From: Paracoccaceae bacterium
Lineage (GTDB): Bacteria; Pseudomonadota; Alphaproteobacteria; Rhodobacterales; Rhodobacteraceae
Length of the DNA: 64,000 nucleotides
Direction: 5' to 3'
Assembly: GCA_019090795.1 (NCBI GenBank)
Contig: JAHRVG010000023.1
Location: 16,178-80,177, forward strand
The notes beneath the pieces were generated by a model. The model was not told where the DNA came from and made no database searches. It was given only the letters and a program-made list of their open reading frames with translations. Shown here one piece after another: positions 29,290 through 50,838 of this stretch. How positions within the stretch are numbered: the first letter of the stretch is position 1; every line of letters starts with the position of its first letter. A program made the position numbers and the translations under genes.

Positions 29290-29533
29290 GGGTGCGCCTT
29301 TATGTGCTGCCTTTTGTGCCGTATACCACAAAAGGCAGCATTTGAAAGTATTATCGACATAATGACGGCTTTCCTAAGCAAATACAGCGGTTTCTGTATT
29401 GAATTATGCTTGAAAGGAAGGTGCTGATATTTTTTGGTCTGTTAATTTTCTGTTATTTGTACGTTACGGGTTTTCTGAGAAACAATAATCGTTTGTTTCT
29501 TTTGGATTTTCCAGCCTTTTTGAAGGTTAGCAT

Positions 29534-29616
29534 GAATCTGAAGCCACGATAGAGCGACTCTGAACCCACGAAGAAGCGATTCCAATCCCACGTTGCAGTG
29601 GCTTGACTTATCCACA
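29534..29616. other. Plasmid origin: three 22-bp iterons plus DnaA box
   Basis: GAATCTGAAGCCACGATAGAGC / GACTCTGAACCCACGAAGAAGC / GATTCCAATCCCACGTTGCAGT in tandem, then TTATCCACA (29608-29616); AT-rich tract about 29400-29530; between divergent parA and repA. Confidence 0.75.
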
Positions 29617-29725
29617 GCCGTGACTAGCCTGAGCGTTATTAAAACCACGATAAGAATCGCAGTAAAGCGTGTGGTAAGGCAGCAGCAAAACAGGACCGGG
29701 AAAATCCGGCCTAAGGCAGGCAGTA

Positions 29726-30727
29726 ATGACAACAGCAAGGCTGTTACCCGACCGGTATCCAACCCGGGATTTCTTTGTGTGCGACGTGTTTGACGCGTTG
29801 CCCAAAGATGATCTTGCGTCCATGGAGCATCCGATATTCTCGCTTTCAACGCGCCCGGACCGGCGGATTTTGACGTATGAACATGGCGACAATCGGATTG
29901 AAATAACTCCCTCGGTCAAGGGGTTGGCGACGCTGCATGACAAAGATATTCTGATCTATTGCATTAGCCAGTTGATGGCGGCGATCAATATGGGGCGACC
30001 AGTTTCAAAGATGTTACAGCTCAAGGCGCATGATCTGCTGGTGGCAACCAATCGGGAAACCTCGGGGGATGGCTACAAGCGTTTACGTGAGGCTTTTGAG
30101 CGCCTCGCGGGCACCCGGATCACCACTAATATTGTTACCGGAGATGTGGAAACCACCAGCGGGTTTGGCCTGATTGAAAGCTGGGAGATTAAGCGCCGCT
30201 CCGGGCGGGGCCGGATGATTTCGGTTTCGGTTAAATTGTCGGACTGGCTGTTTCGCGCGGTGCTGTCGAAATCTGTGCTGACGCTCAGCCGTGATTATTT
30301 CCGTCTGCGCAAACCGCTGGAACGCCGGATTTATGAAATTTCCCGTAAGCACTGTGGGCGGCAACGGGAATGGCGCGTTGGTTTGCAAACCTTGCTAAAG
30401 AAATCCGGCTCTGCCAGCCCGCGGCGCGTCTTTCGCAAAATGATCCGCGATATGATCAAGGCAGACCATTTGCCCGATTACCAACTGTCCGAGGAACCCG
30501 GAGACATCATCCGCGTTACTCCGCGCGCGGTGGTGATCGAGGCGGGTGCGCGTCCGGTGCTGAAAGCCGAGACCCTGGAGCAGGGTCGCGGGCTGGCGCC
30601 GGATTTGGATATTTACGGGCTGGAATCAGAATGGGTGAACTGGTGGGCGCAAACTGGGCGCCCAAGGCTGCGGGCACCAGATGCGGCGTTTCTAGGCTGG
30701 TTGCGCGAACGGGTGGCGCGGGGGTAG
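29726..30727 (+). CDS. repA: Replication initiator RepA (Rhodobacterales RepA-type plasmid, RPA family)
   Basis: FFVCDVFDALPKDDLASMEHPIFSLS, DKDILIYCISQL, YFRLRKPLERRIYEISRKHCG; divergent from parAB. Confidence 0.93.
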   Translation: MTTARLLPDRYPTRDFFVCDVFDALPKDDLASMEHPIFSLSTRPDRRILTYEHGDNRIEITPSVKGLATLHDKDILIYCISQLMAAINMGRPVSKMLQLKAHDLLVATNRETSGDGYKRLREAFERLAGTRITTNIVTGDVETTSGFGLIESWEIKRRSGRGRMISVSVKLSDWLFRAVLSKSVLTLSRDYFRLRKPLERRIYEISRKHCGRQREWRVGLQTLLKKSGSASPRRVFRKMIRDMIKADHLPDYQLSEEPGDIIRVTPRAVVIEAGARPVLKAETLEQGRGLAPDLDIYGLESEWVNWWAQTGRPRLRAPDAAFLGWLRERVARG

Positions 30728-31862: not shown

Positions 31863-33314
31863 ATGGCGATTTTAACATATAGCGGTGCGTTGGATACGAC
31901 CCTGACCGGCACCACCAGCAGTGACTTTTACATTTTTGATCCTGCCCTTCTGGGCACCAATAGCACCACTATTTCCGATGGTGGCGGCGCTGACAAGTTG
32001 GTAATTTATGACTACATTGATGTGCGTGATGCCGGTGAATTTGAATACACTGGCAGCGCGCTGATCTGGCGCAACTATGAGGGAGGCGAGATCGTCATTC
32101 TTCTGGATGGGGATGGCAATCCGGTGATCGAGACGCTGGAGTGGCGTGCCGCCCCGAGCGATGGGACCTATCGCTATAGTCTCGAGATCACCACTGATTT
32201 GATGCCCAGCTCTGGCGGCTCTCTGGCGATTGCGGGCACTAGCGGGGATGATGTGATTGTGGGGCGTGATCACGGGGTTGATACTTTGGGGTGGAACGAG
32301 ATTTATGCCAATGTGGGCGATGACATCGTAACAACCTCGGCCAGCCAGTATTCGTATGTTTACGGCGGTGATGGCAATGACACAATCACCGCTGGTGGCG
32401 CGGCGGGCAGTGATCAGCGGGGCGATGGCGGCAATGACACCCTGACCGGTGGAGTGGCGGCTGATGCGCTGGCTGGCGGCACAGGCAAAGATACGCTTCA
32501 TGGTGGTGATGGTGATGACTCCCTGACGGGCGATGATGGCAAAGATGTGATCTATGACGGCTCGGGTGATGATACCGCGAATGGCGGCAAGGGGGATGAC
32601 ACCTTCTACATGGGCACCGGTGCAGACACGATTGAGGGCGGCGCGGGCAATGATACGCTGGTGGTGGATGTCAGCACCTCTGCGCGGGGCGATTACACAG
32701 TATTCTGGGACATGCTCACCGGTGCCCATGGGGCCAAGGAATTCACCACTACTCGTGATGTTTTTACCGGTATCGAAAACTACACCCTGATCGGTGAGGT
32801 TGATACAGATATTACCGGGGATGATAAGGACAGTTATTTTCTCACCGGTGGGGGCTGGGACACGCTGAGCGGGAGCGCGGGTAAAGATACGCTCGACAGT
32901 GGTGATGGGAATGACATCCTCAAGGGGGGCGGGGGCGACGATGTTCTTACGGCCGGCAAAGGTGGGGATGAGCTGGAGGGCGGTAAAGGTAACGACAAGC
33001 TGAAAGGCGGTAAAGGCAATGACGATCTTGAGGGGGGCAAAGGTAACGACAAGCTGACCGGGGGCGCGGGCAAAGACATATTTGTGTTCAAAAAGGCCGG
33101 TGGCAAAGACACCATCAAGGATTTTCAGGACGATAAAGACACCATTCAGCTGGATGACGCGCTTTGGAATGCTACCTTCAACAAGCAGAAAGTTATCAAC
33201 AAATTCGCCGAAGTGGTGGGTGATGATATTATTTTTGATTTTGGAAAACATGAGTTGAAAATCAAAGGCTTCAGTGATCTTACTGAACTGAAAGATGATT
33301 TCGATATCATTTAG
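31863..33314 (+). CDS. RTX (hemolysin-type Ca-binding) repeat protein, T1SS-type substrate
   Basis: Many GGxGxD nonapeptides, no signal peptide, C-terminal FVF..GKDTIKDFQ...DII; N-terminal domain unassigned. Confidence 0.85.
   Translation: MAILTYSGALDTTLTGTTSSDFYIFDPALLGTNSTTISDGGGADKLVIYDYIDVRDAGEFEYTGSALIWRNYEGGEIVILLDGDGNPVIETLEWRAAPSDGTYRYSLEITTDLMPSSGGSLAIAGTSGDDVIVGRDHGVDTLGWNEIYANVGDDIVTTSASQYSYVYGGDGNDTITAGGAAGSDQRGDGGNDTLTGGVAADALAGGTGKDTLHGGDGDDSLTGDDGKDVIYDGSGDDTANGGKGDDTFYMGTGADTIEGGAGNDTLVVDVSTSARGDYTVFWDMLTGAHGAKEFTTTRDVFTGIENYTLIGEVDTDITGDDKDSYFLTGGGWDTLSGSAGKDTLDSGDGNDILKGGGGDDVLTAGKGGDELEGGKGNDKLKGGKGNDDLEGGKGNDKLTGGAGKDIFVFKKAGGKDTIKDFQDDKDTIQLDDALWNATFNKQKVINKFAEVVGDDIIFDFGKHELKIKGFSDLTELKDDFDII
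33101..33299 (+). repeat. About 200-bp direct repeat, copy 1 (T1SS-signal-coding region)
   Basis: About 11 mismatches in 199 bp versus 34691-34889 by manual alignment. Confidence 0.9.
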
Positions 33315-33425
33315 CGTTCCGGGGCTGTTAAAAAACCGCAAAATCTGCTATCCATTTATTGTAATTTGGAGGCTTGCTTCCTGATGCGCCTTAAAGTGTT
33401 TTGTAATAATTCCAGAACCTCGCGC

Positions 33426-33447
33426 TGTTTCAGGCCAGCCTGAAACA
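33426..33447. promoter_or_regulatory. Perfect palindrome immediately upstream of serralysin-like gene (putative operator)
   Basis: TGTTTCAGGC-CA-GCCTGAAACA, 10-bp arms, 17 nt before ATG 33465. Confidence 0.4.
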
Positions 33448-33464
33448 TTGTGGGAAAAAATGAT

Positions 33465-34904
33465 ATGGCTGGAACCGGGCACGGAGTTGATTTTGAGGTA
33501 ACGGCGTCAGGTGTGCAGATTATCGATGCAGTGCTGGCGGGGTCGGTTTGGACCGATACAACAGTTACCTTCAGTTTTCCCGACAGCGGCAGCGATTACA
33601 TCGATTATGACACCAGCGAGCCGGACGGGGTAATCCCGCTGACTGCGCTGATGAAATCTGCGGCCCGATTTGTGCTCGATAAAGACGATGGCAACAGCGC
33701 CAACGACGGCTTTTCGATTGAGGGGTTTACCGCGCTCACCGTTGATTTTGTCACCAGCACAGGGGCGCATTTGCGTCTTGCCCAGACCAGCGAAGATCCG
33801 TTCGGTTATAATACTGCCTGGGGCGGGAACCCCTGGTGGAACCCCGAGGCGGGTGATGTCTGGTTTCATACTGAGGTCTATGATTACACCAACCCGAAAC
33901 CGGGGGCGCATAACTGGCGTACGCATTTGCACGAACTGGGCCATGCGATGGGGTTGAAACACGGACACGCTGACGAGGGTACCGGTTTTGGCACCTTGCC
34001 CGAAGGTATGGACAGCTATGAATATTCGGTGATGACCTATCGCAGCCACCCTGGGGCCGATCTGGCCACCCATTATGGCGAGTGGTCAGCCCCGCAGAGC
34101 TATATGATCGCTGATATTGCTGCCTTGCAATATCTTTACGGGGCCGACTATGACACCAACGCGGGCAACACTACTTATACTTGGACACCGGGCAGCGCGG
34201 ATACACAGGTCGACGGGGCGGTGGCGATTAGCCCGGGCGGAGATGTGATCCTCGCCACCATCTGGGATGGCGGCGGCATTGATACCTATGATCTGAGCGC
34301 CTATTCCAGCGCCTTGATGCTGGATCTGCGCCCCGGCGAACACTCGCGCTTTTCCGAAGCTCAGCGGGCTTGGCTTGGCGATGATTACTACGCGCGCGGC
34401 AATATCTTTAACGCATTGCTGTTTGAGGGTGATAAACGCTCCCTGATTGAGAATGCTACCGGTGGTAGCGGGAATGACAAGATCACCGGCAATGAAGCGG
34501 CAAATAAACTGCTTGGCGGTGCAGGGCGGGATCTGTTGAAAGGGCTGGAGGGCAAAGACCTGCTCAAAGGCGGCGGTGGCAAAGATAAGTTGCTTGGCGG
34601 CTCTGGCACCGATCAGCTGGATGGCGGCAAAGGCCGCGACCAGATGACGGGCGGTGGTGGCAAAGACAAGTTTGTGTTCAAAAAAGGCTATGGCAAAGAC
34701 ACCATCAAGGATTTTCAGGACGATAAAGACACCATTCAGCTGGATGACGCGCTCTGGAACGGCAGTTTCAACAAGCAGAAAGTCATCAACAAATTCGCCG
34801 AGGTGGTGGGTGATGATATTATTTTTGATTTTGGAAAACATGAGTTGAAAATCAAAAGCTTCAGTGATCTTACTGAACTAAAGGATGATCTGGATTTTAT
34901 CTGA
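33465..34904 (+). CDS. Serralysin-like M10B metalloprotease with RTX repeats
   Basis: HELGHAMGLKH zinc motif, Met-turn YSVMTY, DIAALQYLYG, TIWDGGGIDT, IENATGGSGND, RTX tail. Confidence 0.92.
   Translation: MAGTGHGVDFEVTASGVQIIDAVLAGSVWTDTTVTFSFPDSGSDYIDYDTSEPDGVIPLTALMKSAARFVLDKDDGNSANDGFSIEGFTALTVDFVTSTGAHLRLAQTSEDPFGYNTAWGGNPWWNPEAGDVWFHTEVYDYTNPKPGAHNWRTHLHELGHAMGLKHGHADEGTGFGTLPEGMDSYEYSVMTYRSHPGADLATHYGEWSAPQSYMIADIAALQYLYGADYDTNAGNTTYTWTPGSADTQVDGAVAISPGGDVILATIWDGGGIDTYDLSAYSSALMLDLRPGEHSRFSEAQRAWLGDDYYARGNIFNALLFEGDKRSLIENATGGSGNDKITGNEAANKLLGGAGRDLLKGLEGKDLLKGGGGKDKLLGGSGTDQLDGGKGRDQMTGGGGKDKFVFKKGYGKDTIKDFQDDKDTIQLDDALWNGSFNKQKVINKFAEVVGDDIIFDFGKHELKIKSFSDLTELKDDLDFI
34691..34889 (+). 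repeat. About 200-bp direct repeat, copy 2
   Basis: Offset 1590 bp from copy 1. Confidence 0.9.
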
Positions 34905-35084
34905 ACCTGCCTTTCTGCGGGTTGCTGTGTTGCCTTGGGCATGGCCAAGGGGCAACACCTCGGGAAGTGTGACAATTTTTGCGACTAAATTTTAGTGTTT
35001 CTCAAGGATTTATGGTAAGTTCTTAACTAAAGTGGGCAAAAAATGACCCGCATGAGCGGCAAGTATCAGAGGCAGTGACATATT

Positions 35085-36749
35085 ATGAGACCGACAGATC
35101 CCCCTCCATCGAATGTTTTCGAAACCGCCGATGCCGCTAACGGGCTGGATACGGCCTATCTTCTAGGGCCGGGTAACAGCTTTTTTGGCACGCTGGAGAG
35201 TGGCGATACAGACTGGATCGCGGTTCAGCTGGGTATCGGGTCAGTGTATAATTTTCAGGTGATGGGCACGGGCGGGGATGCCTTGCCCGATAGCAGGGCA
35301 CACCTTAATCTGTACACCTATAACGGTACGCTGGTTACACGTGATGATGTGACAGGGGATGATGGGGATGGCATTTCCGCAGATATCTGGTTTCGCGCGG
35401 AATATAATGGCATCTATTATCTGAAGGTCGGCTCTCTGAGCACCGGAGACTATGAGCTGGCGAGCGAAGTTACCGTGGATTTTCCGCCGTTTTTTGTTGA
35501 TGTGGATACAATCGCGGAACAGCTGACAACGGGATATTGGGCCCAATTTGGTGAAGGTCAGCGCCGCTTTGATGTGAGCGCCGGTGAAACGCTAAGTGTC
35601 AATATCACCGGGTTGACCACTGCAGGTCAGTATCTGGCAACCGAGGCGCTTGCCGCCTGGACCGCAGTGACCGGGATAGGGTTCAATTTTGTGGCAATCC
35701 CTGATGGCGCAGATATTGTTTTCGATGATGAGGAAGAGGGCGCTTTTGCCAGTGCATCGGTAGCGCCGACCCCTGATCTGGAAAAACCTGTGTTTATCAC
35801 CAGCGCCACGGTCAATGTCTCGGCTGATTGGCTGACTGATTATGGCACAGGGCTGGATACCTATAGTTTTGAGACTTACATCCATGAAATCGGTCATGCG
35901 CTGGGGTTGGGGCATGCGGGGAACTATAACGGTACCGCGACCTATGGCGTCAGCAACAAGTTCCTCAATGACAGCTGGCAGGCGACGGTGATGTCTTATT
36001 TCAGTCAGGATGAAAATCCGGTGATTGATGCGGATTATGCGGCAACCATCACCCCGATGCTGGCAGATCTGCTGGCAATCCAGACATTATACGATACGGC
36101 GGATGATCTGCGGGCCGGGGATACGGTTTACGGCGTTGGCTCCACTGCGGGGGGATATTACGATGATCTGGTGTCGATGCGCAATCCGGTGACCCTGACC
36201 ATACTGGATCATGGCGGGGTGGATACCATCAATATGTCTATTGTCACGGCAACTCCTATGGATCAATTGATCGACCTGCGCTCCGAGGCTATTTCCAGTG
36301 TCCTTGGCTTGAAGGGTAATCTGATTATCGCGCGCGGCACAGTGATTGAAAACGCTATTGGCGGCGCGGGGGATGATGTGCTGAAGGGCAATAGTGTCGC
36401 AAACATCCTGACCGGCGGGCAGGGGCAGGACCGGCTGCGCGGTGCTCAGGGCCGGGATGTCCTGAAGGGCGGCAAAGGTGATGACGTGCTGATTGGCGGC
36501 AAAGGGGCTGATGCCTTTGTGTTTAAGACCAAAGGTGGCAAAGACACCATTCGTGATTTTCAGGATGACAGAGACACCATCCGACTGGATGATGCGCTCT
36601 GGAGCGGCACCCTGACCAAACAACAGCTGGTTGATACATTCGCATCGGTCGTGGGCAGTGATATTGTCTTTGATTTTGGCGCGGAAGAGTTGAAAATCAA
36701 AGGCTTCACGGACTTAAGTGAACTGGCCGATGATCTGAGTATTATTTGA
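35085..36749 (+). CDS. Serralysin-like M10 metalloprotease with N-terminal PPC-like domain and RTX repeats
   Basis: N-terminal GTLESGDTDWIAVQL..YYLKV (PPC-like), HEIGHALGLGHAGNY, Met-turn TVMSYF, IENAIGGAGDD, RTX tail. Confidence 0.9.
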   Translation: MRPTDPPPSNVFETADAANGLDTAYLLGPGNSFFGTLESGDTDWIAVQLGIGSVYNFQVMGTGGDALPDSRAHLNLYTYNGTLVTRDDVTGDDGDGISADIWFRAEYNGIYYLKVGSLSTGDYELASEVTVDFPPFFVDVDTIAEQLTTGYWAQFGEGQRRFDVSAGETLSVNITGLTTAGQYLATEALAAWTAVTGIGFNFVAIPDGADIVFDDEEEGAFASASVAPTPDLEKPVFITSATVNVSADWLTDYGTGLDTYSFETYIHEIGHALGLGHAGNYNGTATYGVSNKFLNDSWQATVMSYFSQDENPVIDADYAATITPMLADLLAIQTLYDTADDLRAGDTVYGVGSTAGGYYDDLVSMRNPVTLTILDHGGVDTINMSIVTATPMDQLIDLRSEAISSVLGLKGNLIIARGTVIENAIGGAGDDVLKGNSVANILTGGQGQDRLRGAQGRDVLKGGKGDDVLIGGKGADAFVFKTKGGKDTIRDFQDDRDTIRLDDALWSGTLTKQQLVDTFASVVGSDIVFDFGAEELKIKGFTDLSELADDLSII

Positions 36750-38528: not shown

Positions 38529-38864
38529 CATTATCAGTACCTTGAAGTGCTGTCAGGGTTCTAACGTGTTTCACGTTTAAACCGAATTGCTTTAGCTATA
38601 GCGTTGGTGTCTGCCGGAGAGTGTGATCAGCTACTCGCGCCGTCGCGCGCCTTCCTAAAGCGTTGCTTGATCTTGAAATTCCAATCAGCCCACAGGCATG
38701 CGGTAAAGCAGAGGCAGGCCCAATTTGATAAAAGTTGATCAAGATCACAGTATCTGGAATTCGAATCAATTAACCTGTTGGGTGACCGAAGGAAATTCTC
38801 CCTCGGAGATGATGGTTTGCAAGAACCGGTGCATCCATGGCCGTGTTCACGGCTGTGATAAACC

Positions 38865-38915
38865 TAGAGCGTTTTACGTTTTCCGGGAAACTCGGGTGAA
38901 ACGGATAACGCCTTA
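38865..38915. repeat. Short intergenic inverted-repeat element (TAGAGCG... family)
   Basis: TAGAGCGTTTTACGTTT ... AAACGGATAACGCCTTA imperfect arms; abuts the RBS of the next gene. Confidence 0.45.
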
Positions 38916-38927
38916 ATGGAGGAAAAA

Positions 38928-40475
38928 ATGGCTGATTTTATAGGAACAAACGACGACGATGGCTTGGTTGGAAGTCTGTTTTCAGACACCATTAGGGGTG
39001 CTCTGGGCGATGATCTGTTGGTTGGGCTGAACGGGGATGACCTGCTGGAGGGCGGCGGTGGCAGAGATGTGCTGGTCGGGGGCATTGGTGATGATCTGAT
39101 GTTTGGCGGCGAGGGTAACGACAAGATTGTTATGACTGCGGGCGATGACAAGGCTTTTGGCGGCAAAGGCCATGACCAGTATTTCGCCAACGGCTTTGCC
39201 GGCGACTGGTCGCTGATTACCGATACCGGCGGTATTGATACGCTGAATTTCGCCGGCGGTATTACCGGCGCTTTCATGGATCTGACGCCGGGGGCGGTTT
39301 CGACCGTGGATGACCGGTCTGTGGAAATCTCGGGTTTGGGTGATACCGAGCGCCCGCTGGAACTGGTGTTGTTGCAAGACCGTTCCGGTTCTTTCGGCGA
39401 TGACCTGTCAACGATTGAGGGCTTGTTACCGGATTTGATCACCTCTGTTACCGGGCTGGCCGATGATGTCAGCCTTGGTTTGGCCTCTTTTATTGACAAG
39501 CCGATGTCGCCTTTTGGCAGTACAGGAGACCACGAGTATAAAACCGAGCTGGGACTGACAGGGGATACGACCGCTTGGTCGGATGCGGTGAAAGCCCTGA
39601 CAGCCTTTGGCGGCAACGACACACCTGAATCCCAGATGACTGGCCTGTTACAGGTGGCGTTGCGGACCTCCGAAGTGGGCTGGAGCTCGGATTCTCTGAA
39701 AGTAGTGGTCCTGACCACCGATGCGCGGCCCCACTTTGCCGGTGATAACCCGGTCGCCCCCAATGACGGGGATAATGTGACGGATGGCCCGGATGATAAT
39801 GGCACAGGCGAAGATTATCCGACCATTGAACAGGTCAAGTCCGCGTTGCTGGCTGCCGGGATCATTCCGGTATTTGCGGTGACATCGGGCGTGACTTCCG
39901 ATTATCAGGCATTGGTCGATGAGTTCGGTTTTGGCACAGTTGTGCCCCTGAGTTCCGACAGCTCGGACATCATCGCAGCCTTTGAGGATGGCATCAGCAA
40001 CGCAGCTGATTCAGTGATCGAAAACGCGGTTGGTACTGATTTTAATGACACTATTCTGGGCAACAGTGCCAGAAACGAGCTGAAAGGCCGTGCTGGTAAT
40101 GACGTGTTGCGCGGAGAGAAAGACAATGACGATCTTTATGGCAACAGAGGCAACGACAAATTGTTTGGCGGTAACGGCAAGGATGATCTGATGGGCGGCG
40201 GCGGTCGAGACAGATTGGCGGGCGGCAATGGCGCGGATAGTTTTGTCTTTAATGTGGCTGCTTCTGCTCAGGGCAGGGATCTGGTGCTGGATTTTGAGAA
40301 TGACGTTGATACGATCACGGTTCTGAACAGCAGTTTGCTGACATTCTCCGATATTACCGCGACCCAGGTGGGCGCTGATACGGTTCTCAGTGAAGGCGGT
40401 TCTGAGTTTGCTGTCCTCATTGGAATTGATGTTGCCGATGTCGATGCAACCGACTTTGTGTTTGATATCGCCTAG
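38928..40475 (+). CDS. RTX protein with integrin beta I-like vWA domain
   Basis: RTX repeats at both ends; 39354-39990 encodes PLELVLLQDRSGSFGDD, FIDKP, NDTPE, GW, TTDARPHFAGD, PNDG, DYPT, IIPVFAVT, LSSDSS. GGAGG RBS before ATG 38928. Confidence 0.85.
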   Translation: MADFIGTNDDDGLVGSLFSDTIRGALGDDLLVGLNGDDLLEGGGGRDVLVGGIGDDLMFGGEGNDKIVMTAGDDKAFGGKGHDQYFANGFAGDWSLITDTGGIDTLNFAGGITGAFMDLTPGAVSTVDDRSVEISGLGDTERPLELVLLQDRSGSFGDDLSTIEGLLPDLITSVTGLADDVSLGLASFIDKPMSPFGSTGDHEYKTELGLTGDTTAWSDAVKALTAFGGNDTPESQMTGLLQVALRTSEVGWSSDSLKVVVLTTDARPHFAGDNPVAPNDGDNVTDGPDDNGTGEDYPTIEQVKSALLAAGIIPVFAVTSGVTSDYQALVDEFGFGTVVPLSSDSSDIIAAFEDGISNAADSVIENAVGTDFNDTILGNSARNELKGRAGNDVLRGEKDNDDLYGNRGNDKLFGGNGKDDLMGGGGRDRLAGGNGADSFVFNVAASAQGRDLVLDFENDVDTITVLNSSLLTFSDITATQVGADTVLSEGGSEFAVLIGIDVADVDATDFVFDIA

Positions 40476-40549: not shown

Positions 40550-40584
40550 ACTCCCGCGCCAATAGGTGCGGGAGTTTCCTTTTG
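40550..40584. terminator. Bidirectional Rho-independent terminator
   Basis: ACTCCCGCGCC-AATA-GGTGCGGGAGT followed by TTCCTTTT, between convergent genes. Confidence 0.7.
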
Positions 40585-40597: not shown

Positions 40598-41764
40598 TCA
40601 GTCCATTTTGAAAATGTCACGGGTGAACACTTTGTCAGCCACATCTGACAGGGCCTCATCTACCCGGTTAGACAGAATAACATCCGATGTTGCCTTGAAG
40701 GCATCGAAATCTCGGTAATTTTTGGAGTGGTAGAATTCAGCATCCTCCAGCGCCGGTTCATAGACGATCACCTCGATCCCTCTGGCCTTGATCCGCTTCA
40801 TCACGCCCTGGATTGAGCTGTCGCGGAAATTATCCGAGCCGGTTTTCATCGTCAGACGGTAAATCCCAACGCAGGTCGGATTTTGCGCGATGATGTGATC
40901 GGCAATGAAATCCTTGCGGGTCTGGTTGGCCTCGACAATGGCGCGGATCAGGTTTTGCGGCACGCTGTCATAGTTTTTCAACAGTTGTTTGGTGTCTTTG
41001 GGCAGGCAATAGCCACCATAGCCAAAAGACGGATTATTGTAATGATCACCGATACGCGGATCAAGGCTGACGCCTTCGATCACTTGGCGTGACGAAATGT
41101 CATTGGCCAGCGCATAGCTGTCCAGCTCGTTGAAAAAAGCCACCCGCATTGCAAGGTAGGTATTGGCAAACAGCTTGATCGCCTCTGCTTCGGTAGAGCC
41201 GGTCAGCAGAACCGGTGGGGTATCATCAAGCGCGCCCTCGACCAGCAGATCAGCAAACTGTTGCCCCCGAGCGCTCTTGGCCCCCACGATAATACGCGAG
41301 GGGTGCAGATTGTCATAAAGTGCCCGCCCTTCGCGCAGGAATTCAGGCGAGAAGAACAGGGTGTCTTTGCCGTGTTCCGCCTGCAAGGAAGCGGAGTAGC
41401 CTACGGGAATGGTCGATTTGATCACAATGGTGGCATCGGGGGCCTGCACGCGGGCGTTGGCAATCACGTCCTCAACCGAAGAGGTGTCAAAAGAATTGGT
41501 TTCTGGGTCATAGCTGGTGGGGGTGGCAACAATGATGAAATCTGCACCTTCAAAGGCGGTTTTGACATCGGTTGTCGCGCTCAGGTCCAGATCATGGTTG
41601 GCGAGGTAATCCTCGATCTCCGGATCCGCGATGGGGGAAATCCGGGCATTAACCTGCGCGACCCGGTCAGGGGAAATATCCAGGGCAACAACGGTGTTAT
41701 TTTGTGCCAGAAGAATAGCATTCGACAGCCCAACATAGCCGATACCGGCAATAGCGATTTTCAT
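40598..41764 (-). CDS. ugd: UDP-glucose 6-dehydrogenase
   Basis: [63 protein letters not shown]. Confidence 0.97.
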
Positions 41765-41869: not shown

Positions 41870-44800
41870 TTAACGCCGCTTAATTGTGTAAACAGCACCG
41901 GCATCCATTGCTCCCAGCGGGCTTGTCCCGCCATCCGCCCAGTGGATAACCCCGCCACCAATAGCCTTATGTGCGCCCAGCCCGAAGTGCAGGATTGGGG
42001 CGTCAAACGACATGAAACCACCGCCCAGTTGCAACTCACGACTGGCGGTTTTGCCATCGCCATAGGTTATTTCGACTGTGGTTCCGATGCTGTGGAAATT
42101 GCCATGCTGGTCGGCAAATTCAAAGCCGATGGCGTTGTCCTTTTGCGTGTTGTTGCGAAATACCGTGATCGGCCCGTTGACCGGATGGGTGACCAGATCA
42201 ATATCGCCATCAAGGTCCATGTCAAAGGCGGTGGCTGCGGCGGTCATCAGGTAATCTTCAAGGCCAAAGGGGCCGGAGGCCTCGGTGAAACGACCATCCC
42301 CCTGATTGTGGAAAAACAGGTTCGAGGGGCTGACCTCGTTTGGCACCCATGTGCCGTTGACGATGTAAACGTCGAGGTACCCGTCATTGTCGAAATCGGC
42401 AATTTTGGTATCCCAGCTCCAGCCCCCAACCTCCAGTCCCTGCGCCTCTGCCACATCCGCGTAAATCGGGCCGTTACCGCGTTCCAGCAACACGTTTGAG
42501 CGTAAAACCTGGGGCAGGGCGATGGCGCGCTCGGTAGCACTGGCGCGGTGGACCGGCCAGAAATGGATCGTGCAATAGGCCTTTGCCAGCGGCTGGCCTT
42601 TGGGGATGAGCTGGCAAATCGTCGGGTCTTTTTGTTGGATTGCCAGATCCTTGACCAGCATCGCCTTACACTCCCCTTGATCGCGCCCGCGCAAGTTCTG
42701 GCATTTACCCGCATAGCTCGGGTCAAAATTATTGCCGGATTTATACCATTGTTTCACCGCCATGTTGCGCAGACAGATCGCCCGATCCGTATCCCGTTTG
42801 ATGCTGTCACAATAGCGCGCCAAGGGCTGCATCTTGAGGGTTTTGGATACTCCTGAAGAGCGTCCGGCAATCTGTGCCAGATAGATTTCGGGCATGCCGT
42901 CATTGTGCAGATCAGCAGTTTTGATCGCCATGGTGGTGGTGGTGGTTTGCGGAATGATCCCGTCCTGATAGGTGATCTGGCTAAACTCGCCTGTCCCGTC
43001 ACCAAAGTAATAGGCATCGGGCACCTCGAAGTCATTACCCACCAGCAAATCGCTGTGGCCATCCCGGTTAATGTCGGAAAACAGGATCGACAGGGTTTCG
43101 CCGGGCTGGGCTGGCAGGTCGGTGTATTCACTGCCATCCATCACCCCGTTCTGGTTAAACAGAATACGATTGCGCGATTCTTCGCCCGGAATGCGGCGGT
43201 ACCAGCCAGCGGCCCAATTCCCCAAAGCCACGTCAAGATCGCCATCCTGATCCGGATCACCAAAACTCAGCCCAATGCTTAGCACTGCGTTTTTGCGATT
43301 GGCGATGGGGGTTAGTCTGGCAATATCAAAGCGTCCCTGATCGTTGGGCAACAGGAAATTACCCGCGCGATAGGTGGTGATGAACAGATCGAGCCAGCCG
43401 TCATTGTCCATATCCACCAGTACCGCGCTAAACACCGGCATATCCGCCAGCGGGCCAAGGGCAAGCGGAATGGGGCTGAACTGCCCTGCGCCGGTATTCT
43501 CATAGATGTACATCCCTACGCGGGTCGAGGCGATTATCAGGTCAATATCTCCGTCGCGATCAAAATCCCCCGACGATAAACCGCGTCCCTCCCAGAAAGG
43601 CGGCCACATGTCCTGAAAGGAAAACTCGATCGGCTTGTCGATGCCGATCTCCCAGCCCTCCAAACGGGTGAAAGGCTTGTTTGCGGCAGGCGAGCGGGGC
43701 TGAAACGGGCGGGCAGTGATTTCGATGGCGGGGGTATCCGCCGCATGGGCCATTGCGATCAGGCTAAACGGTTGTGCCTGCCCCAGCAGCAATTTCAACG
43801 CGCGATCGCTCTGCCACTGGTGATAGCTTTGCGCACCCCCCCCCGCAATCACCCCAAGAATAACAACCACAAGGCTGAGCAGAACCGCCGCACGCATGGA
43901 TATGGCGCGGGCCACAATGAAAAACGAATAGACACTGAAGATCCCCAGTGTAAACACCAGCGCCATGACAAATCCGGGGGCAAGGCCACTGCTGAGCAGC
44001 GCCCCCGCCATCACCACGTCAAAGGCAATCGGCACCGGTAAGAAGGTGCCGACAAGGGCCACCAGCAACACCGTGAACAGGCCGAAACCTACGTCTTGCA
44101 ATACTTCGGGCGGGATCAGCGTTGCCACAGCTGCACCCAGAAACCCCGCCAGCAACATTAGCGGCACAGTTGTTTTCACGATGAACCACAGGTTTTTGGC
44201 ATAAGCCACCAGCACGCCAACCAGCGCTGCCAAAACTGGCTCCGCTGGTGGTTCGCCGCCCGTCAGATCCCAGCCCTCCGGCTCAATCACCGGGGTTATC
44301 TGCAACTGTTCACGCGGCAAAAACCGGCAGATCACCGGCACGGCAATCAGGATCACTGCAAGGCTCAGCACCAACTTGGCCAGCACCATATAAAACGGCA
44401 ACAGACTGAACAACATGGTCAGCACCACGATATTGAGCGTCGGCGAGGCAATCATCGCCGACAGGGTGGTTTCCGCGCGCATCCCCGCCGAATACAGCCC
44501 CTTGGCAATGGGCGCTGCGCAATTCACGCAAACCCCAAGCGGCGCGCCAATGAACATACCCAGCACCGAGTTCACAAACCCGCCGCGAAAACTGCGTTGC
44601 TGGAGATAACCAAAGAAGGTCAGGAAAGCCGCCCCCAGCATGAGGCCAAAACTCATGCCCTTTTTGTTGGTGTCAATCCAGTTGATGGTGGAATAGGCAA
44701 TCCGCTGCACCAGCGGCATATCAGGGCTGACCGGCAGCACGGCTTCGAAACTGATCGGATCCTCAAGCTGGATCGCACCTGACATCAGCATCTTGTCATC

Positions 44801-44908
44801 CAGTGCGGGATAGCGTGACTGGGTCCAGAACAGGGCCGCAAGGAGCAGGATCAGCAGAAGCGCAAAACCGGCACGTTTTTTGTAAGGCTTGGCAATAAGA
44901 CCGTGCAT
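41870..44908 (-). CDS. Fusion of DUF318/ArsP-like permease with FG-GAP (CRTAC1-like) propeller and ASPIC/UnbV domain
   Basis: Hydrophobic N-terminal 360 aa with PLGVCVNCAAP; then DFDRDGDIDL, DMDNDGWLDL, DPDQDGDLDV, DINRDGHSDL, DLHNDGMPEI, DFDNDGYLDV, DMDLDGDIDL; C-terminal GGGFMSFDAPILHFGLG. Confidence 0.85.
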   Translation of the reverse strand: MHGLIAKPYKKRAGFALLLILLLAALFWTQSRYPALDDKMLMSGAIQLEDPISFEAVLPVSPDMPLVQRIAYSTINWIDTNKKGMSFGLMLGAAFLTFFGYLQQRSFRGGFVNSVLGMFIGAPLGVCVNCAAPIAKGLYSAGMRAETTLSAMIASPTLNIVVLTMLFSLLPFYMVLAKLVLSLAVILIAVPVICRFLPREQLQITPVIEPEGWDLTGGEPPAEPVLAALVGVLVAYAKNLWFIVKTTVPLMLLAGFLGAAVATLIPPEVLQDVGFGLFTVLLVALVGTFLPVPIAFDVVMAGALLSSGLAPGFVMALVFTLGIFSVYSFFIVARAISMRAAVLLSLVVVILGVIAGGGAQSYHQWQSDRALKLLLGQAQPFSLIAMAHAADTPAIEITARPFQPRSPAANKPFTRLEGWEIGIDKPIEFSFQDMWPPFWEGRGLSSGDFDRDGDIDLIIASTRVGMYIYENTGAGQFSPIPLALGPLADMPVFSAVLVDMDNDGWLDLFITTYRAGNFLLPNDQGRFDIARLTPIANRKNAVLSIGLSFGDPDQDGDLDVALGNWAAGWYRRIPGEESRNRILFNQNGVMDGSEYTDLPAQPGETLSILFSDINRDGHSDLLVGNDFEVPDAYYFGDGTGEFSQITYQDGIIPQTTTTTMAIKTADLHNDGMPEIYLAQIAGRSSGVSKTLKMQPLARYCDSIKRDTDRAICLRNMAVKQWYKSGNNFDPSYAGKCQNLRGRDQGECKAMLVKDLAIQQKDPTICQLIPKGQPLAKAYCTIHFWPVHRASATERAIALPQVLRSNVLLERGNGPIYADVAEAQGLEVGGWSWDTKIADFDNDGYLDVYIVNGTWVPNEVSPSNLFFHNQGDGRFTEASGPFGLEDYLMTAAATAFDMDLDGDIDLVTHPVNGPITVFRNNTQKDNAIGFEFADQHGNFHSIGTTVEITYGDGKTASRELQLGGGFMSFDAPILHFGLGAHKAIGGGVIHWADGGTSPLGAMDAGAVYTIKRR

Positions 44909-46068: not shown

Positions 46069-46908
46069 ATGAAAATGACTAGATATCTTCGATATGCCCG
46101 TACCAGTCATGGAGCACTTGCCAAAAATGAGCAGCACGGTTTCGCGGCACGCTATGCGCTAAGTCATTTTCGCTCAAATACGGTTTATTCATTCATCCCC
46201 AAAAACGGTTGTACGACGATGCGTTATTCCTTTGGCATTGCAAATGGGTGTATTCAGGACAGCGCGGATTTCGAGTGGGTTCACGAAAATAACCGCACCT
46301 TCTCGGCATCTCTGCGGGAACTGGCCTGCGCAAATTATACCTTCGTGATTTTACGCTGCCCCTATACTCGACTTGTCAGCGCCTTTACCGACAAAATCAT
46401 CCATATTGATGACAAACCCAAGAATGGACATCTCTTTAACTTTCGCAAAGCCTCGGGATATTCAGCCGAGGATGTTAATGATTTGTCCTTCCGCCTGTTT
46501 TGTGAAGCTTTGGCTAAACCGGCAGTTCTGCGGGCGGATGTCCATTGGCGACCGCAAGTGGATTATCTTGTTTACGAAGAATATGATTCCTACTTCCGCC
46601 TCGAACAATTTCCCGAGGCTGTCCATGAAATCGAGCGGAATACAGGCATTCTGATCCAGGATGCGCGCCAACTCTCGCGCCATGGAACGGATCAGTTGAC
46701 CCTGGTTTCCGACAGATGCTATGCGGACACGCCGCTTCGGGATCTTATCAAGATGAAAACGGCGGGTTGTATGCCTGCCCATGATGCATTCTATGACCCG
46801 GACCTGAGGCATCTGGTTGAGGATGTATTCAAAATGGATTTCGCATTTCTTGAAACAAAATTCCCGACACCAAAGACGGTCCTTTCGTCAGGGACCGTCC
46901 GTGGGTAG
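46069..46908 (+). CDS. Sulfotransferase family 2 (carbohydrate sulfotransferase-like)
   Basis: 5'-PSB YSFIPKNGCTTMR, 3'-PB FVILRCPYTRLVSAFTDK, DVHWRPQ. Confidence 0.85.
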   Translation: MKMTRYLRYARTSHGALAKNEQHGFAARYALSHFRSNTVYSFIPKNGCTTMRYSFGIANGCIQDSADFEWVHENNRTFSASLRELACANYTFVILRCPYTRLVSAFTDKIIHIDDKPKNGHLFNFRKASGYSAEDVNDLSFRLFCEALAKPAVLRADVHWRPQVDYLVYEEYDSYFRLEQFPEAVHEIERNTGILIQDARQLSRHGTDQLTLVSDRCYADTPLRDLIKMKTAGCMPAHDAFYDPDLRHLVEDVFKMDFAFLETKFPTPKTVLSSGTVRG

Positions 46909-50761: not shown

Positions 50762-50838
50762 TCTAGAGTACCGTCCTTTTAATCTGCAACATTTGTAGTT
50801 CTTAAAATCTGTTGCGCCCCTGCTAATTGGATGCTGCT

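What the first reader, a model, noticed from the sequence alone, without database searches (positions are those of the whole stretch)
39354..39990. Integrin beta I-like domain inserted into a serralysin-type beta-roll
Seen: the motifs run colinear with the animal integrin beta I domain as I recall it: DRSGSFGDD (DLSYSMKDD; MIDAS/ADMIDAS), FIDKP.SP (FVDKP.SP), DTPE (DAPE), GW, TTDA..H.AGD, PNDG, DYPT (DYPS), IIPVFAVT, LSSDSS. It lacks the Cys specificity loop and has G at the first SyMBS Asn. The domain sits between DTGGIDT...DLTPG and IENAVG, which are contiguous in the neighbouring proteases, so it is an insertion, topologically like beta I in the integrin hybrid domain. Known: beta I-like sequences were reported in the cyanobacterium Trichodesmium, so the fold is not new to bacteria. 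A secreted RTX version could bind or mimic ligands of animal or algal hosts.
Basis: partly seen in the sequence, partly recalled or inferred. Interest (0 to 1): 0.85.

Follow-up and report, generated by a model that had tools for sequence, protein, structure and literature searches.

The report
Integrin-β-type domain in bacterial RTX protein
A marine Rhodobacteraceae plasmid encodes a probably secreted, calcium-repeat protein carrying a genuine integrin-β-type metal-binding adhesion domain spliced into its β-roll; it is one member of a large, uncharacterised bacterial family that bears on where the animal integrin head came from.

Summary
The gene (38928..40475, +, 515 aa) carries a 221-aa domain that scores 116 bits to Pfam Integrin_beta against 17 bits to generic VWA. 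By sequence, by family profile and by predicted fold, its best PDB matches are all integrin β chains. All MIDAS and ADMIDAS side chains are kept, and 4 of 5 SyMBS ligands (N215→Gly). The Cys specificity loop is deleted and the protein has no cysteine. Three serralysin-family profiles run gaplessly across the excision junction, so this is a true insertion into a serralysin-type RTX β-roll. The protein has no protease domain.

It is not unique. About 235 clusters (50% identity) are as close or closer. Sixty-two species genomes from at least six phyla carry the domain, including the published Trichodesmium homologue. Databases already auto-name some members. Metal-site residues are about 99% conserved across 245 domains.

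The most likely role is a type-I-secreted, Ca2+-folded, Mg2+/MIDAS-dependent binding (adhesion) protein whose ligand is unknown. The host-mimicry idea is unsupported.

Side findings: some relatives fuse a 7-bladed FG-GAP propeller to the same module, and gregarine apicomplexans carry related domains. I rate it a new variant of a known kind, of moderate interest.

The parts
38918..38922 (+). Shine-Dalgarno GGAGG, 5 nt upstream of the ATG at 38928
   Evidence: Read directly from the sequence. Orthologues start MADxIGT.
38928..40475 (+). Gene for the RTX / beta I-like protein (515 aa). The mechanical ORF starts at 38916 (519 aa), and residue numbers in this report use the 519-aa frame.
   Evidence: ORF list; orthologues of 515-540 aa with 56-94% identity; AF2 model with mean pLDDT 90.1 and pTM 0.84.
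38931..39209 (+). N-terminal RTX nonapeptide beta-roll (aa 6-98)
   Evidence: Pfam HemolysinCabind, 6 stretches; short regular strands over aa 6-102 in the model.
39210..39347 (+). N-flank of the serralysin-type C-terminal beta-roll (aa 99-144; ITDTGGIDTLNF...DLTPGAVSTV...GLGDT)
   Evidence: Aligns to the neighbour proteases and to Zn_serralysin profile positions from about 275 to about 317.
39348..40010 (+). Integrin beta I-type VWA domain (aa 145-365), the inserted module
   Evidence: Pfam PF00362, 116 bits; PDB sequence hits are all integrin beta; the top 50 Foldseek hits are all integrin beta; alternating strand/helix pattern over aa 148-364.
39378..39404 (+). MIDAS DxSxS (D155, S157, S159) plus ADMIDAS D162 and D163 (DRSGSFGDD)
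   Evidence: Alignment to verified beta3 residues D119, S121, S123, D126 and D127; 88-99% conserved in 245 bacterial domains.
39489..39503 (+). FIDKP, with D194 equivalent to SyMBS D158
   Evidence: D is conserved in 245 of 245 domains.
39513..39536 (+). 8-residue stub (about aa 200-207) in place of the 26-residue, disulfide-bonded specificity-determining loop
   Evidence: Alignment; the stub is 8 aa long in 184 of 245 domains.
39612..39629 (+). G233-N-D235-T-P237-E238. G replaces SyMBS N215. D235, P237 and E238 correspond to D217, P219 and E220 (E220 is shared by MIDAS and SyMBS).
   Evidence: Gly occupies this position in 237 of 245 domains.
39714..39725 (+). TTDA, with D269 equivalent to MIDAS D251
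   Evidence: conserved in 243 of 245 domains.
40011..40253 (+). C-flank of the beta-roll (SVIENAVGTDFND...) followed by RTX repeats (aa 366-446)
   Evidence: Pfam Peptidase_M10_C and HemolysinCabind; Zn_serralysin profile positions from about 318 to 368, continuing directly from the N-flank.
40254..40472 (+). C-terminal beta-sandwich cap and putative uncleaved type I secretion signal (ends ...DVDATDFVFDIA)
   Evidence: Strands over aa 455-518 with pLDDT of about 96; D513 and F514 are nearly invariant. The signal function is inferred from serralysin-type T1SS substrates.
40550..40575 (+). Terminator-like hairpin (11-bp stem, 8 GC pairs, T-rich tail) between this gene and the convergent UDP-glucose dehydrogenase gene
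33450..34904 (+). Neighbouring zincin / RTX protein used as an uninterrupted reference for the beta-roll
   Evidence: Pfam Peptidase_M10_C, HemolysinCabind and Reprolysin_5; a single HSP spans the junction.
35085..36749 (+). Neighbouring serralysin-like protease (zincin + M10_C + RTX), where ...ARGT|VIENAIGG is contiguous
   Evidence: Pfam; alignment.

Best explanation
The gene encodes a small, cysteine-free RTX protein. An integrin beta I-type VWA domain (aa 145-365) is spliced between two consecutive turns of a serralysin-type calcium beta-roll. The protein has no protease domain.

Proposed mechanism: the unfolded chain is exported by a type I secretion system through its C-terminal signal. 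It folds outside the cell when seawater Ca2+ fills the RTX repeats. The rigid beta-roll then presents the beta I domain, whose MIDAS binds Mg2+, flanked by an ADMIDAS and a modified SyMBS Ca2+ site. That MIDAS captures a carboxylate (or other acidic) group of a ligand, as integrin beta I domains do. With no specificity loop and no alpha-subunit in cis, the binding face is open. The protein most likely acts as a soluble or surface-retained adhesin or matrix binder.

Shown here: the domain's identity, its metal-site residues, the insertion topology, and strong purifying selection on the sites across the family. Inferred only: secretion route, metal occupancy, ligand binding, and the nature of the ligand.
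For: Domain identity:
- Pfam Integrin_beta scores 116 bits against 17 bits for VWA.
- All 60 listed PDB sequence hits are integrin beta for the single sequence and for the family profile, best 3.9e-47.
- The AF2 model has pLDDT 90.1 and pTM 0.84, and its top 50 Foldseek hits in PDB are all integrin beta chains with probability 1.0.

Metal sites:
- D155, S157, S159, E238 and D269 correspond to the beta3 MIDAS; D162 and D163 to ADMIDAS; D194, D235, P237 and E238 to SyMBS.
- These residues are 88-100% conserved in 245 bacterial-type domains that are only about 47% identical overall. That argues for a conserved metal- and ligand-binding function.

Insertion:
- The flanks rejoin into one alignment against the neighbour proteases.
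- They also match three serralysin-family profiles without a gap at the junction.
- The same flanks (G.DTLD...LDLS...|beta I|...IEDAVGG) surround the domain in distant fusion proteins.

Extracellular role:
- Six RTX stretches, an M10_C-type C-terminus, no N-terminal signal peptide and 0 Cys.
- Partner domains across the family are adhesin-type: RTX in 22 of 37, plus Big_9, Calx-beta, cadherin-like, SdrD_B, SpaA, and a tail that looks like PEP-CTERM.
Against: No type I secretion genes lie in the 64-kb window; it has type II secretion genes instead. Secretion therefore rests on analogy.

One SyMBS ligand is lost (N215 to Gly, family-wide), so the three-metal arrangement may differ from that of integrins.

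In integrins without an alpha-I domain, ligand binding needs the alpha-subunit propeller and the specificity loop, and both are absent here.

There is no conserved gene neighbourhood to hint at a ligand or partner.

The Pfam Peptidase_M10_C model did not report the excised construct.

No experimental data exist for any member of the family.
Confidence: 0.65

Rival explanations
1. The ligand is the bacterium's own, or a neighbour's, acidic exopolysaccharide. The protein would then be a biofilm-matrix or capsule cross-linker, analogous to the T1SS-secreted, Ca2+-binding Rap adhesins of Rhizobium, rather than a binder of host proteins.
For: The same replicon carries UDP-glucose dehydrogenase, which makes a uronic-acid precursor, next to the gene. 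It also carries a sulfotransferase, glycosyltransferases, an ABC-2/Wza-type polysaccharide export system, and other RTX and cadherin-like adhesins. Carriers are mostly free-living marine or mat-forming bacteria. The MIDAS chemistry suits carboxylates; that point rests on established knowledge.
Against: Orthologues in Neptunicoccus, Antarcticimicrobium and a JGI genome sit among housekeeping genes with no polysaccharide genes nearby. No VWA-type MIDAS domain is known to me to bind polysaccharide; that is my own knowledge and was not tested.
Confidence: 0.25
2. The beta I-like module works together with an FG-GAP beta-propeller as a two-part, integrin-head-like binding unit. Here the partner would be the FG-GAP protein encoded 1.4 kb downstream (41870..44908, minus strand).
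For: Several relatives carry a 7-blade FG-GAP propeller (PF01839, up to 148 bits) and the same beta-roll/beta I module in one polypeptide. Examples are Rhodobacter sp. KR11 WP_319800866.1 and an Acetobacteraceae MAG. The window encodes a protein with 5 FG-GAP_3 repeats close by.
Against: The window's FG-GAP protein is fused to a multi-pass permease (ArsP_1) and an ASPIC domain, so it is a different family and is probably anchored in the inner membrane. Orthologues of the beta I gene have no FG-GAP neighbour. Only 3-4 of 62 genome loci have a propeller in cis or within 10 kb. FG-GAP/VCBS repeats are common in large bacterial adhesins, so the fusions could be incidental. No interface could be examined with these tools.
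Confidence: 0.1
3. The domain was recently acquired from an animal or other eukaryotic host, and the secreted protein acts as an integrin mimic or decoy that competes for host ligands such as RGD or ECM proteins.
For: Identity to vertebrate beta I domains is 32-37% with conserved metal sites. One carrier genus, Neptunicoccus cionae, takes its name from the ascidian Ciona (for the name; its origin is my own knowledge).
Against: The bacterial family is large and old. It has 235 clusters at E<=1e-30, spans at least 6 phyla, is about 47% identical internally and about 32% identical to animals, and has its own signatures: Gly at N215, a short SDL stub, and no Cys. The specificity loop that selects integrin ligands is missing. 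In part of the Rhodobacteraceae the gene holds a stable chromosomal position between a CMAS-family methyltransferase gene and carB, which suggests vertical descent there.
Confidence: 0.07
4. It is an accessory of the co-located serralysin-like proteases (33450..36749), a protease paralogue that lost its catalytic domain and now recruits substrates or regulates the proteases.
For: It shares the M10_C-type beta-roll and C-terminus with the two proteases and lies in the same RTX gene cluster.
Against: Orthologues elsewhere are lone genes without adjacent proteases. The sequence has no HExxH motif and no Peptidase_M10 match. The same module occurs in many non-protease architectures.
Confidence: 0.05
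5. It is a generic bacterial vWA domain whose resemblance to integrin beta is superficial.
For: Weak overlapping matches to VWA, VWA_2 and VWA_4 exist.
Against: Those matches are below their cut-offs (17-21 bits against 116 bits for Integrin_beta). All 60 listed PDB sequence hits and the top 50 structural hits are integrin beta chains. The ADMIDAS and SyMBS residues are present, and established structural work on integrins treats these sites as specific to beta I domains.
Confidence: 0.02

Closest known systems
Integrin beta-subunit beta I (beta A) domain of animals (Pfam PF00362; e.g. human beta3 residues 111-359 in 1jv2 and 1tye)
   Same: The fold is the same by prediction. Identity is 32-37% over about 210-225 aligned positions. 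All five MIDAS residues, both ADMIDAS aspartates and 4 of 5 SyMBS ligands are kept. The conserved blocks FxDKP, DxPE, GW, TTDA..H.AGD, PNDG, DYP, IFAVT and DSS are shared. Like the integrin domain, it is inserted into a beta-rich host domain through closely spaced N- and C-termini.
   Different: The host is an RTX beta-roll, not the hybrid domain. There is no PSI, EGF, beta-tail, TM or cytoplasmic part. The specificity-determining loop and all disulfides are absent. SyMBS N215 is Gly. The loop around beta3 R261, which contacts the alpha propeller according to established knowledge, is 3 residues shorter. There is no alpha-subunit.
Trichodesmium erythraeum integrin-beta-like protein (reported by Johnson et al. 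2009 as cited in PMC3192720; also noted in PMC2651865 and bioRxiv 10.1101/2020.04.29.069435)
   Same: It belongs to the same bacterial beta I-type family. Its domain is 48% identical to the window domain, with the same short SDL stub (L024).
   Different: In Trichodesmium the domain lies near the N-terminus of a 663-aa protein with no RTX repeats. It is not an insertion in a beta-roll.
Serralysin / alkaline protease (M10B) C-terminal RTX beta-roll, a T1SS substrate
   Same: The flanks of the insert match serralysin-family profiles contiguously (Zn_serralysin positions 275-368). It has RTX nonapeptides and an acidic-hydrophobic C-terminus, and two such proteases are encoded next door.
   Different: There is no zinc-protease domain and no HExxH. 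Extra RTX repeats sit at the N-terminus. A 221-aa domain is inserted between two turns of the roll.
Dictyostelium Sib proteins (vWA_SIBA-E, PF24909)
   Same: They combine a VWA domain with integrin-beta features and bacterial-like repeats (PMC2651865). The match here is weak and overlapping, at 30.7 bits.
   Different: The score is far lower than to Integrin_beta. Sib proteins are transmembrane receptors with talin-binding tails.
Large bacterial RTX / repeat adhesins with terminal ligand-binding VWA domains (e.g. LapA-type, Legionella RtxA; PMC3034196, PMC11264772)
   Same: T1SS-type RTX C-terminus plus a VWA-fold binding module, with Ca2+-dependent folding.
   Different: Here the protein is small (515 aa), has no long stalk or retention module, and its VWA is specifically of the integrin-beta type and sits inside the beta-roll. 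I did not test which VWA type those adhesins carry.

Membership tests
Integrin beta I (beta A) domain family (Pfam PF00362) | Scores above the family's curated cut-off and above generic VWA models | tested here: met
   116.1 bits against a cut-off of 24.8. VWA scores 17.2, VWA_4 20.7 and VWA_2 13.2 bits, all below their cut-offs.
Integrin beta I (beta A) domain family (Pfam PF00362) | VWA alpha/beta fold whose closest solved structures are integrin beta chains | tested here: met
   AF2 pLDDT 90.1. The Foldseek top 50 are all integrin beta, E about 1e-13, probability 1.0. All 60 listed PDB sequence hits are integrin beta.
Integrin beta I (beta A) domain family (Pfam PF00362) | MIDAS: DxSxS plus the equivalents of E220 and D251 | tested here: met
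   D155, S157, S159, E238 and D269 (with beta3 numbering verified). Conserved in 243-245 of 245 family members, counting S/T at the S121 position.
Integrin beta I (beta A) domain family (Pfam PF00362) | ADMIDAS: two adjacent Asp after DxSxS (beta3 D126 and D127) | tested here: met
   D162 and D163. D or E in 232 of 245 at the first position and D in 230 of 245 at the second.
Integrin beta I (beta A) domain family (Pfam PF00362) | SyMBS/LIMBS: D158, N215, D217, P219 and E220 | tested here: inconclusive
   D194, D235, P237 and E238 are present, but N215 is G233, as in 237 of 245 family members. Whether a metal still binds there cannot be told from sequence.
Integrin beta I (beta A) domain family (Pfam PF00362) | Specificity-determining loop with a disulfide | tested here: not met
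   An 8-residue stub replaces the 26-residue segment of beta3, and there are 0 Cys.
Integrin beta I (beta A) domain family (Pfam PF00362) | Metal-dependent ligand binding | not testable with these tools
   This needs biochemistry.
Integrin beta subunit (full-length ITGB) | PSI, hybrid, I-EGF repeats, beta-tail, TM helix and NPxY cytoplasmic tail | tested here: not met
   Pfam reports only Integrin_beta, HemolysinCabind and M10_C. There are no Cys, so no EGF or PSI is possible.
Integrin beta subunit (full-length ITGB) | Heterodimer with an FG-GAP propeller alpha-subunit | not testable with these tools
   There is no propeller in cis. The nearby FG-GAP gene is not conserved in synteny. The tools could not read out any interface.
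Serralysin (M10B) metalloprotease | Zinc-binding HExxHxxGxxH catalytic domain | tested here: not met
   No Peptidase_M10 match and no HExxH in the sequence.
Serralysin (M10B) metalloprotease | C-terminal RTX beta-roll domain | tested here: met
   Peptidase_M10_C at 25 bits against a cut-off of 20.7. The rejoined flanks match Zn_serralysin, ZapA and SapA profiles as one stretch. The Pfam M10_C model did not report the excised construct.
Type I secretion (RTX) substrate | GGxGxDxxx nonapeptide repeats close to the C-terminus | tested here: met
   HemolysinCabind, 74 bits, 6 stretches.
Type I secretion (RTX) substrate | Uncleaved C-terminal signal and no N-terminal signal peptide | tested here: inconclusive
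   The N-terminus MADFIGTNDDDG is not hydrophobic. The C-terminus ...DATDFVFDIA is acidic-hydrophobic, with D513 and F514 nearly invariant. No predictor for T1SS signals was available.
Type I secretion (RTX) substrate | Cognate ABC / MFP / TolC genes nearby | tested here: not met
   I found none among the window ORFs scanned. No ORF of 550 aa or more is an ABC exporter, and T2SS genes are present instead. T1SS genes may lie elsewhere in the genome.

The most novel reading that the evidence does not exclude
The bacterial beta I-type module and FG-GAP propellers form an integrin-head-like binding unit in bacteria, in cis in the fusion proteins and possibly in trans elsewhere. On this reading the alpha-propeller / beta I pairing that defines the integrin ligand-binding head was assembled in bacteria and later passed to eukaryotes. 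Animals and gregarine apicomplexans would then have drawn independently on this bacterial pool. The window protein would be the minimal, propeller-less form of that module.
Probability: 0.1. Interest if true: 0.85.

Novelty: new variant of a known kind. Interest (0 to 1): 0.5.

Why it matters
Integrins are usually presented as an invention of Amorphea. The only bacterial beta-type homologue discussed in the papers I could search is the single Trichodesmium protein.

This locus belongs to a family that is much larger and better conserved than that literature implies. It comprises hundreds of 50%-identity clusters in at least six phyla, and the MIDAS and ADMIDAS residues and most SyMBS residues are almost invariant.

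The window protein is small (515 aa), Cys-free, predicted with high confidence, and present in cultured roseobacters. That makes it a tractable model for three questions:
- What does a beta I domain bind, and how, without an alpha-subunit and without a specificity loop?
- Does metal-site allostery exist outside integrins?
- In which direction did the domain move between bacteria and eukaryotes?

It would also add a new class of binding module to the T1SS/RTX repertoire of marine bacteria.

Tried and rejected
- **Pfam on the excised construct.** It reported only RTX repeats, not Peptidase_M10_C, so this test was inconclusive. The NCBIfam serralysin-family scan replaced it and was clear.
- **Cheap gap-extension alignment (third part).** A local alignment of the un-excised fragment to protease N1 gave a meaningless scatter of blocks. 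I discarded it.
- **First genome scan.** The diverse 23-sequence domain alignment A3 had no stretch conserved enough for pattern design. I redid the scan with a tighter 9-sequence alignment, A4. That scan depends on two exact peptide patterns, so 62 loci is a lower bound.
- **Conserved synteny with an FG-GAP gene, a T1SS or polysaccharide genes.** Rejected. Orthologous loci in Neptunicoccus, Antarcticimicrobium and a JGI contig show none, and a motif scan of the 62 loci found a propeller in only 3-4.
- **AF2 on an FG-GAP + beta I fusion.** Not run. The proteins exceed or approach the 1200-aa limit and came from a search whose hits may not be accepted. The tool also returns neither coordinates nor PAE, so the interface could not have been read.
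- **Promoter scan.** No sigma-70-type promoter was found upstream. This says little for an alphaproteobacterium.
- **Antisense ORF 38864..39805 (minus strand, 313 aa, Ser/Pro-rich).** I treated it as a by-product of the coding strand and did not pursue it.
- **Literature searches.** I found no paper on beta-roll-inserted or FG-GAP-fused bacterial beta I domains. The library lacks most subscription journals, including Johnson et al. 2009 itself.
Full report
**The gene.** The finding lies in one ORF, window 38916..40475 on the + strand (519 aa). A GGAGG lies 5 nt upstream of the second ATG at 38928. The orthologues are 515 aa long and begin MADxIGT. The real product is therefore most likely the 515-aa protein from 38928. 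Residue numbers below use the 519-aa frame. A terminator-like hairpin (11-bp stem, T-rich tail) sits at 40550-40575, between this gene and the convergent UDP-glucose dehydrogenase gene.

**Checking the observation.** Pfam gives Integrin_beta (PF00362) at E=2.8e-33 and 116 bits over aa 145-357, covering profile positions 3-238 of 248. Generic VWA reaches 17 bits, VWA_4 21 bits and VWA_2 13 bits, all below their cut-offs. The Dictyostelium Sib-type model reaches 29-31 bits.

phmmer of the domain against all PDB sequences returns 61 hits at E<=10. The 60 listed are all integrin beta chains, from beta6 and beta7 (1e-22) to beta8. A profile built from 23 diverse bacterial members does the same, with a best hit to beta2 at 3.9e-47 and 164 bits.

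AlphaFold2 on a 52-sequence alignment gives mean pLDDT 90.1 and pTM 0.84. Foldseek of that model against PDB lists integrin beta chains in all top 50 places, with E about 1e-13 and probability 1.0. That criterion is not met, so the domain is of the integrin beta I type.

**Metal sites.** I wrote out human beta3 residues 111-359 from memory and checked them against PDB. The sequence is identical to 1tye_B and 1jv2_B at exactly those positions. Aligning the window domain with beta3, beta6 and beta7 gives these equivalences:

- MIDAS: D119, S121, S123, E220 and D251 correspond to D155, S157, S159, E238 and D269.
- ADMIDAS: D126 and D127 correspond to D162 and D163.
- SyMBS: D158, D217, P219 and E220 correspond to D194, D235, P237 and E238, but N215 is G233.

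The assignment of these beta3 residues to the three sites is established structural knowledge and was not tested here. Identity to beta3, beta6 and beta7 is 31.7%, 34.8% and 37.0%. The segment that holds the disulfide-bonded specificity-determining loop is 26 residues in beta3 and 8 here. The whole protein has no cysteine.

**The insertion.** The model shows short, regular beta-roll strands over aa 6-138, an alternating strand/helix domain over 148-364, beta-roll again over 370-446, and a beta-sandwich cap over 455-518.

Removing aa 145-365 in silico lets a single BLAST HSP run from ITDTGGIDT... through ...SVIENAVG... against the neighbouring protease at 33450..34904 (112 bits, against 102 bits for the intact protein). 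Local alignments to both neighbouring proteases also span the junction.

Pfam's M10_C model did not report the excised construct, so I used NCBIfam instead. A 126-aa fragment made of the two rejoined flanks matches three models as one essentially gapless stretch. The junction is at residue 63|64 of the fragment:

| Model | Fragment residues | Profile positions |
|---|---|---|
| Zn_serralysin | 21-115 | 275-368 |
| ZapA | 20-122 | 285-386 |
| SapA | 20-103 | 276-358 |

The domain is therefore a true insertion between two consecutive turns of a serralysin-type beta-roll. The protein has no protease domain and no HExxH. It carries extra RTX repeats at its N-terminus.

**How common it is.** A word-indexed search of the full protein finds same-architecture orthologues (56-94% identity, 515-540 aa) in Neptunicoccus, Pseudodonghicola, Antarcticimicrobium and Aquicoccus. 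NCBI names them 'M10 family metallopeptidase C-terminal domain-containing protein'. UniRef names some 'Integrin beta subunit VWA domain-containing protein'.

An exhaustive phmmer search of the domain against 1.84 billion 50%-identity representatives gives 2410 hits at E<=1e-3, 850 at <=1e-10 and 235 at <=1e-30. The best 150 are 35-60% identical, nearly all above 43%, which is closer than animal integrins. They sit in proteins of 263-3678 aa, some with several copies of the domain.

A scan of GTDB species representatives with a domain-only alignment found 62 loci:

- Rhodobacteraceae and other Alphaproteobacteria
- Chromatiaceae, Halomonas and methanotrophs
- Myxococcales, Planctomycetota, Chlorobiaceae and Actinomycetota
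- many filamentous cyanobacteria, including Trichodesmium erythraeum IMS101, whose domain is 48% identical to the window domain

The scan depends on two exact peptide patterns, so 62 is a lower bound. The nearest named genus to the window is Neptunicoccus, at 80% identity in the domain.

**Conservation across the family.** In 245 bacterial-type domains that average only about 47% pairwise identity in a diversity-filtered subset of 89, the metal-site residues are almost fixed:

| beta3 position | Conserved in (of 245) |
|---|---|
| D119 | 243 |
| S121 | 244 (as S or T) |
| S123 | 243 |
| D126 | 232 (as D or E) |
| D127 | 230 |
| D158 | 245 |
| D217 | 241 |
| E220 | 243 |
| D251 | 243 |

The family also has its own signatures: Gly at the N215 position in 237 of 245, an 8-residue SDL stub in 184, and no Cys in 222. 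This is the strongest argument that the family works through metal-dependent binding.

**Architectures and context.** In Nostoc and Leptolyngbyaceae the domain is at the very N-terminus, with RTX repeats only after it. One relative has a signal peptide and a tail that looks like PEP-CTERM. The published Trichodesmium protein has no RTX repeats. The beta-roll insertion is therefore lineage-specific, not ancestral.

Among 37 sampled relatives the partner domains are RTX (22), Big_9, Calx-beta, cadherin-like, FG-GAP, SdrD_B, SpaA and PPC, which is the repertoire of extracellular adhesins.

The window itself is a plasmid- or chromid-like replicon. It carries ParB, ParA and RepA at 26.8-30.7 kb and is rich in surface and secretion functions:

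- four other RTX proteins, two of them zincins with a serralysin-type C-terminal domain
- a cadherin/Big_9 RTX adhesin
- type II secretion genes
- glycosyltransferases and a sulfotransferase
- UDP-glucose dehydrogenase
- capsule-type polysaccharide export genes

It has no type I secretion genes.

Orthologues elsewhere are lone genes among housekeeping genes. In Antarcticimicrobium and a JGI genome the gene lies between a CMAS-family methyltransferase gene and carB. In Neptunicoccus it lies between a TPR gene and a Peptidase_M48 gene. Gene context therefore gives no reliable clue to a partner or a ligand.

**Mechanism.** The best-supported reading is a secreted, Ca2+-folded presentation scaffold (the beta-roll) carrying a MIDAS binding head. 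The identity of the parts and the selection on the metal sites are shown. Export by a T1SS, folding in millimolar Ca2+, Mg2+ at the MIDAS, and capture of an acidic ligand group are inferred from what is established for serralysin-type RTX proteins and for integrin beta I domains.

Against a simple transfer of the integrin mechanism, the specificity loop and an alpha-subunit are both missing and one SyMBS ligand is lost. Rival ideas about the ligand cannot be separated with sequence data: the bacterium's own acidic polysaccharide, host proteins, a propeller partner, or the neighbouring proteases. The host-mimicry idea is the least supported, given the size, age and ecology of the family.

**Two side findings bear on origins.**

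First, at least five relatives combine in one chain a 7-bladed FG-GAP propeller (PF01839, up to 148 bits) with the same beta-roll/beta I module, with the same flanking motifs as in the window. They include Rhodobacter sp. KR11 WP_319800866.1 and an Acetobacteraceae MAG. About six more are suggested by motif alone. Chouhan et al. 2011, who described integrin-type propellers in bacteria, do not mention this pairing. The window also encodes an FG-GAP protein 1.4 kb downstream. That protein is a permease/ASPIC fusion, and the adjacency is not conserved.

Second, two gregarine apicomplexans encode proteins with tandem beta I-type domains: Blabericola migrator in EukProt, and Porospora cf. gigantea XP_068378503.1 on a 79-kb contig.

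In a neighbour-joining analysis of 95 domains, the three vertebrate sequences group together in 200 of 200 bootstraps. They group with the gregarines in only 1 of 200. Mean identity is about 32% for bacteria against animals, about 32% for bacteria against gregarines, and 24% for gregarines against animals. The bacterial family thus sits at the hub. This fits separate eukaryotic acquisitions from bacteria. With three animal sequences, no outgroup and a distance method, it is only a lead.

**What is known.** Bacterial integrin-beta-like sequences have been in the literature since 2009, but only as the Trichodesmium case (PMC3192720, PMC2651865, bioRxiv 10.1101/2020.04.29.069435). Six literature searches found nothing on RTX-embedded or propeller-fused versions, or on any function. 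Databases already tag the domain automatically.

**Verdict.** The thing itself is a new architectural variant of a known but unstudied kind, not a singular discovery. The functional speculation remains open. Interest is moderate (0.5). It would be higher for the family as a whole if the propeller pairing proves functional.

Noticed in passing
Relatives P0153, P0162 (Acetobacteraceae MAG MGE0222494.1), P0208 (Rhodobacter sp. KR11 WP_319800866.1), P0201, P0207; by motif also P0197, P0206, P0182, P0192, P0223, P0158; genome locus L042: Single polypeptides combine an N-terminal 7-blade FG-GAP (integrin-alpha-type) propeller, RTX repeats and the same beta-roll-inserted beta I-type domain. I found no mention of this pairing in the searchable literature.
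   Followed up: partly
P0124 (EukProt, Blabericola migrator, 1894 aa, 5 copies); P0131/P0265 (Porospora cf. gigantea B, XP_068378503.1, 2 copies): Gregarine apicomplexans encode tandem integrin-beta-type domains (Pfam 122-151 bits). These are closer to the bacterial family (about 32% identity) than to animal integrins (about 24%). This is a eukaryotic occurrence outside the lineages usually credited with integrins.
   Followed up: partly
window 41870..44908 (-): A 1012-aa protein fusing a multi-pass permease (ArsP_1), five FG-GAP_3 repeats and a UnbV_ASPIC domain lies 1.4 kb from the beta I gene. The adjacency is not conserved in orthologous loci.
   Followed up: partly
window 26826..30727: ParB-like (weak match), ParA and RepA (PF10134, 330 bits) form a replication and partition module, so the window is probably a roseobacter-type plasmid or chromid.
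   Followed up: no
window 31863..36749: Three RTX proteins lie in tandem just upstream. One (31863..33314) matches only RTX repeats in Pfam. Two are zincins with a serralysin-type C-terminal domain, and the one at 35085 also has a weak PPC-like N-terminal match.
   Followed up: partly
window 9476..14120 (-) and 54507..56185 (+): Type II secretion genes are split into two blocks on the same replicon: GspF, GspE and secretin GspD in one, GspJ and GspK in the other.
   Followed up: no
window 14412..18119 (+): A 1235-aa RTX protein with bacterial cadherin-like and Big_9 domains, probably another secreted adhesin.
   Followed up: no
window 2240..4579, 21045..22823, 40598..41764, 46069..46908, 59826..63875: Polysaccharide genes are scattered over the replicon: GT2 glycosyltransferase, a weak GlfT2-like match (below cut-off), UDP-glucose dehydrogenase, sulfotransferase, an ABC-2 exporter pair and a Wza-like protein. 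Together they suggest an acidic, possibly sulfated surface polysaccharide.
   Followed up: no
window 49568..52392 (-): Two adjacent Sel1-repeat proteins (397 and 517 aa).
   Followed up: no
window 38864..39805 (-): A 313-aa Ser/Pro-rich ORF lies antisense to the beta I gene. It is most likely a by-product of the coding strand's composition.
   Followed up: no
L013 and L019 (Antarcticimicrobium luteum); L002, L003, L004: A. luteum carries two copies of the gene. In Antarcticimicrobium and a related JGI genome the gene holds a fixed chromosomal position between a CMAS-family methyltransferase gene and carB, which suggests vertical inheritance there, in contrast with the plasmid location in the window.
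   Followed up: partly
P0087 (393 aa): This relative has an N-terminal signal peptide and what looks like a PEP-CTERM sorting tail instead of RTX repeats, so the same domain may be exported by a different route. I read this from the sequence only.
   Followed up: no
L024 12555..20609 (-), Trichodesmium erythraeum: Next to the Trichodesmium beta I-like gene is a 2684-aa ORF whose ends resemble DNA polymerase III alpha. It is interrupted by a long array of near-identical ~50-residue repeats and by stretches that look like inteins. I read this by eye and ran no test.
   Followed up: no
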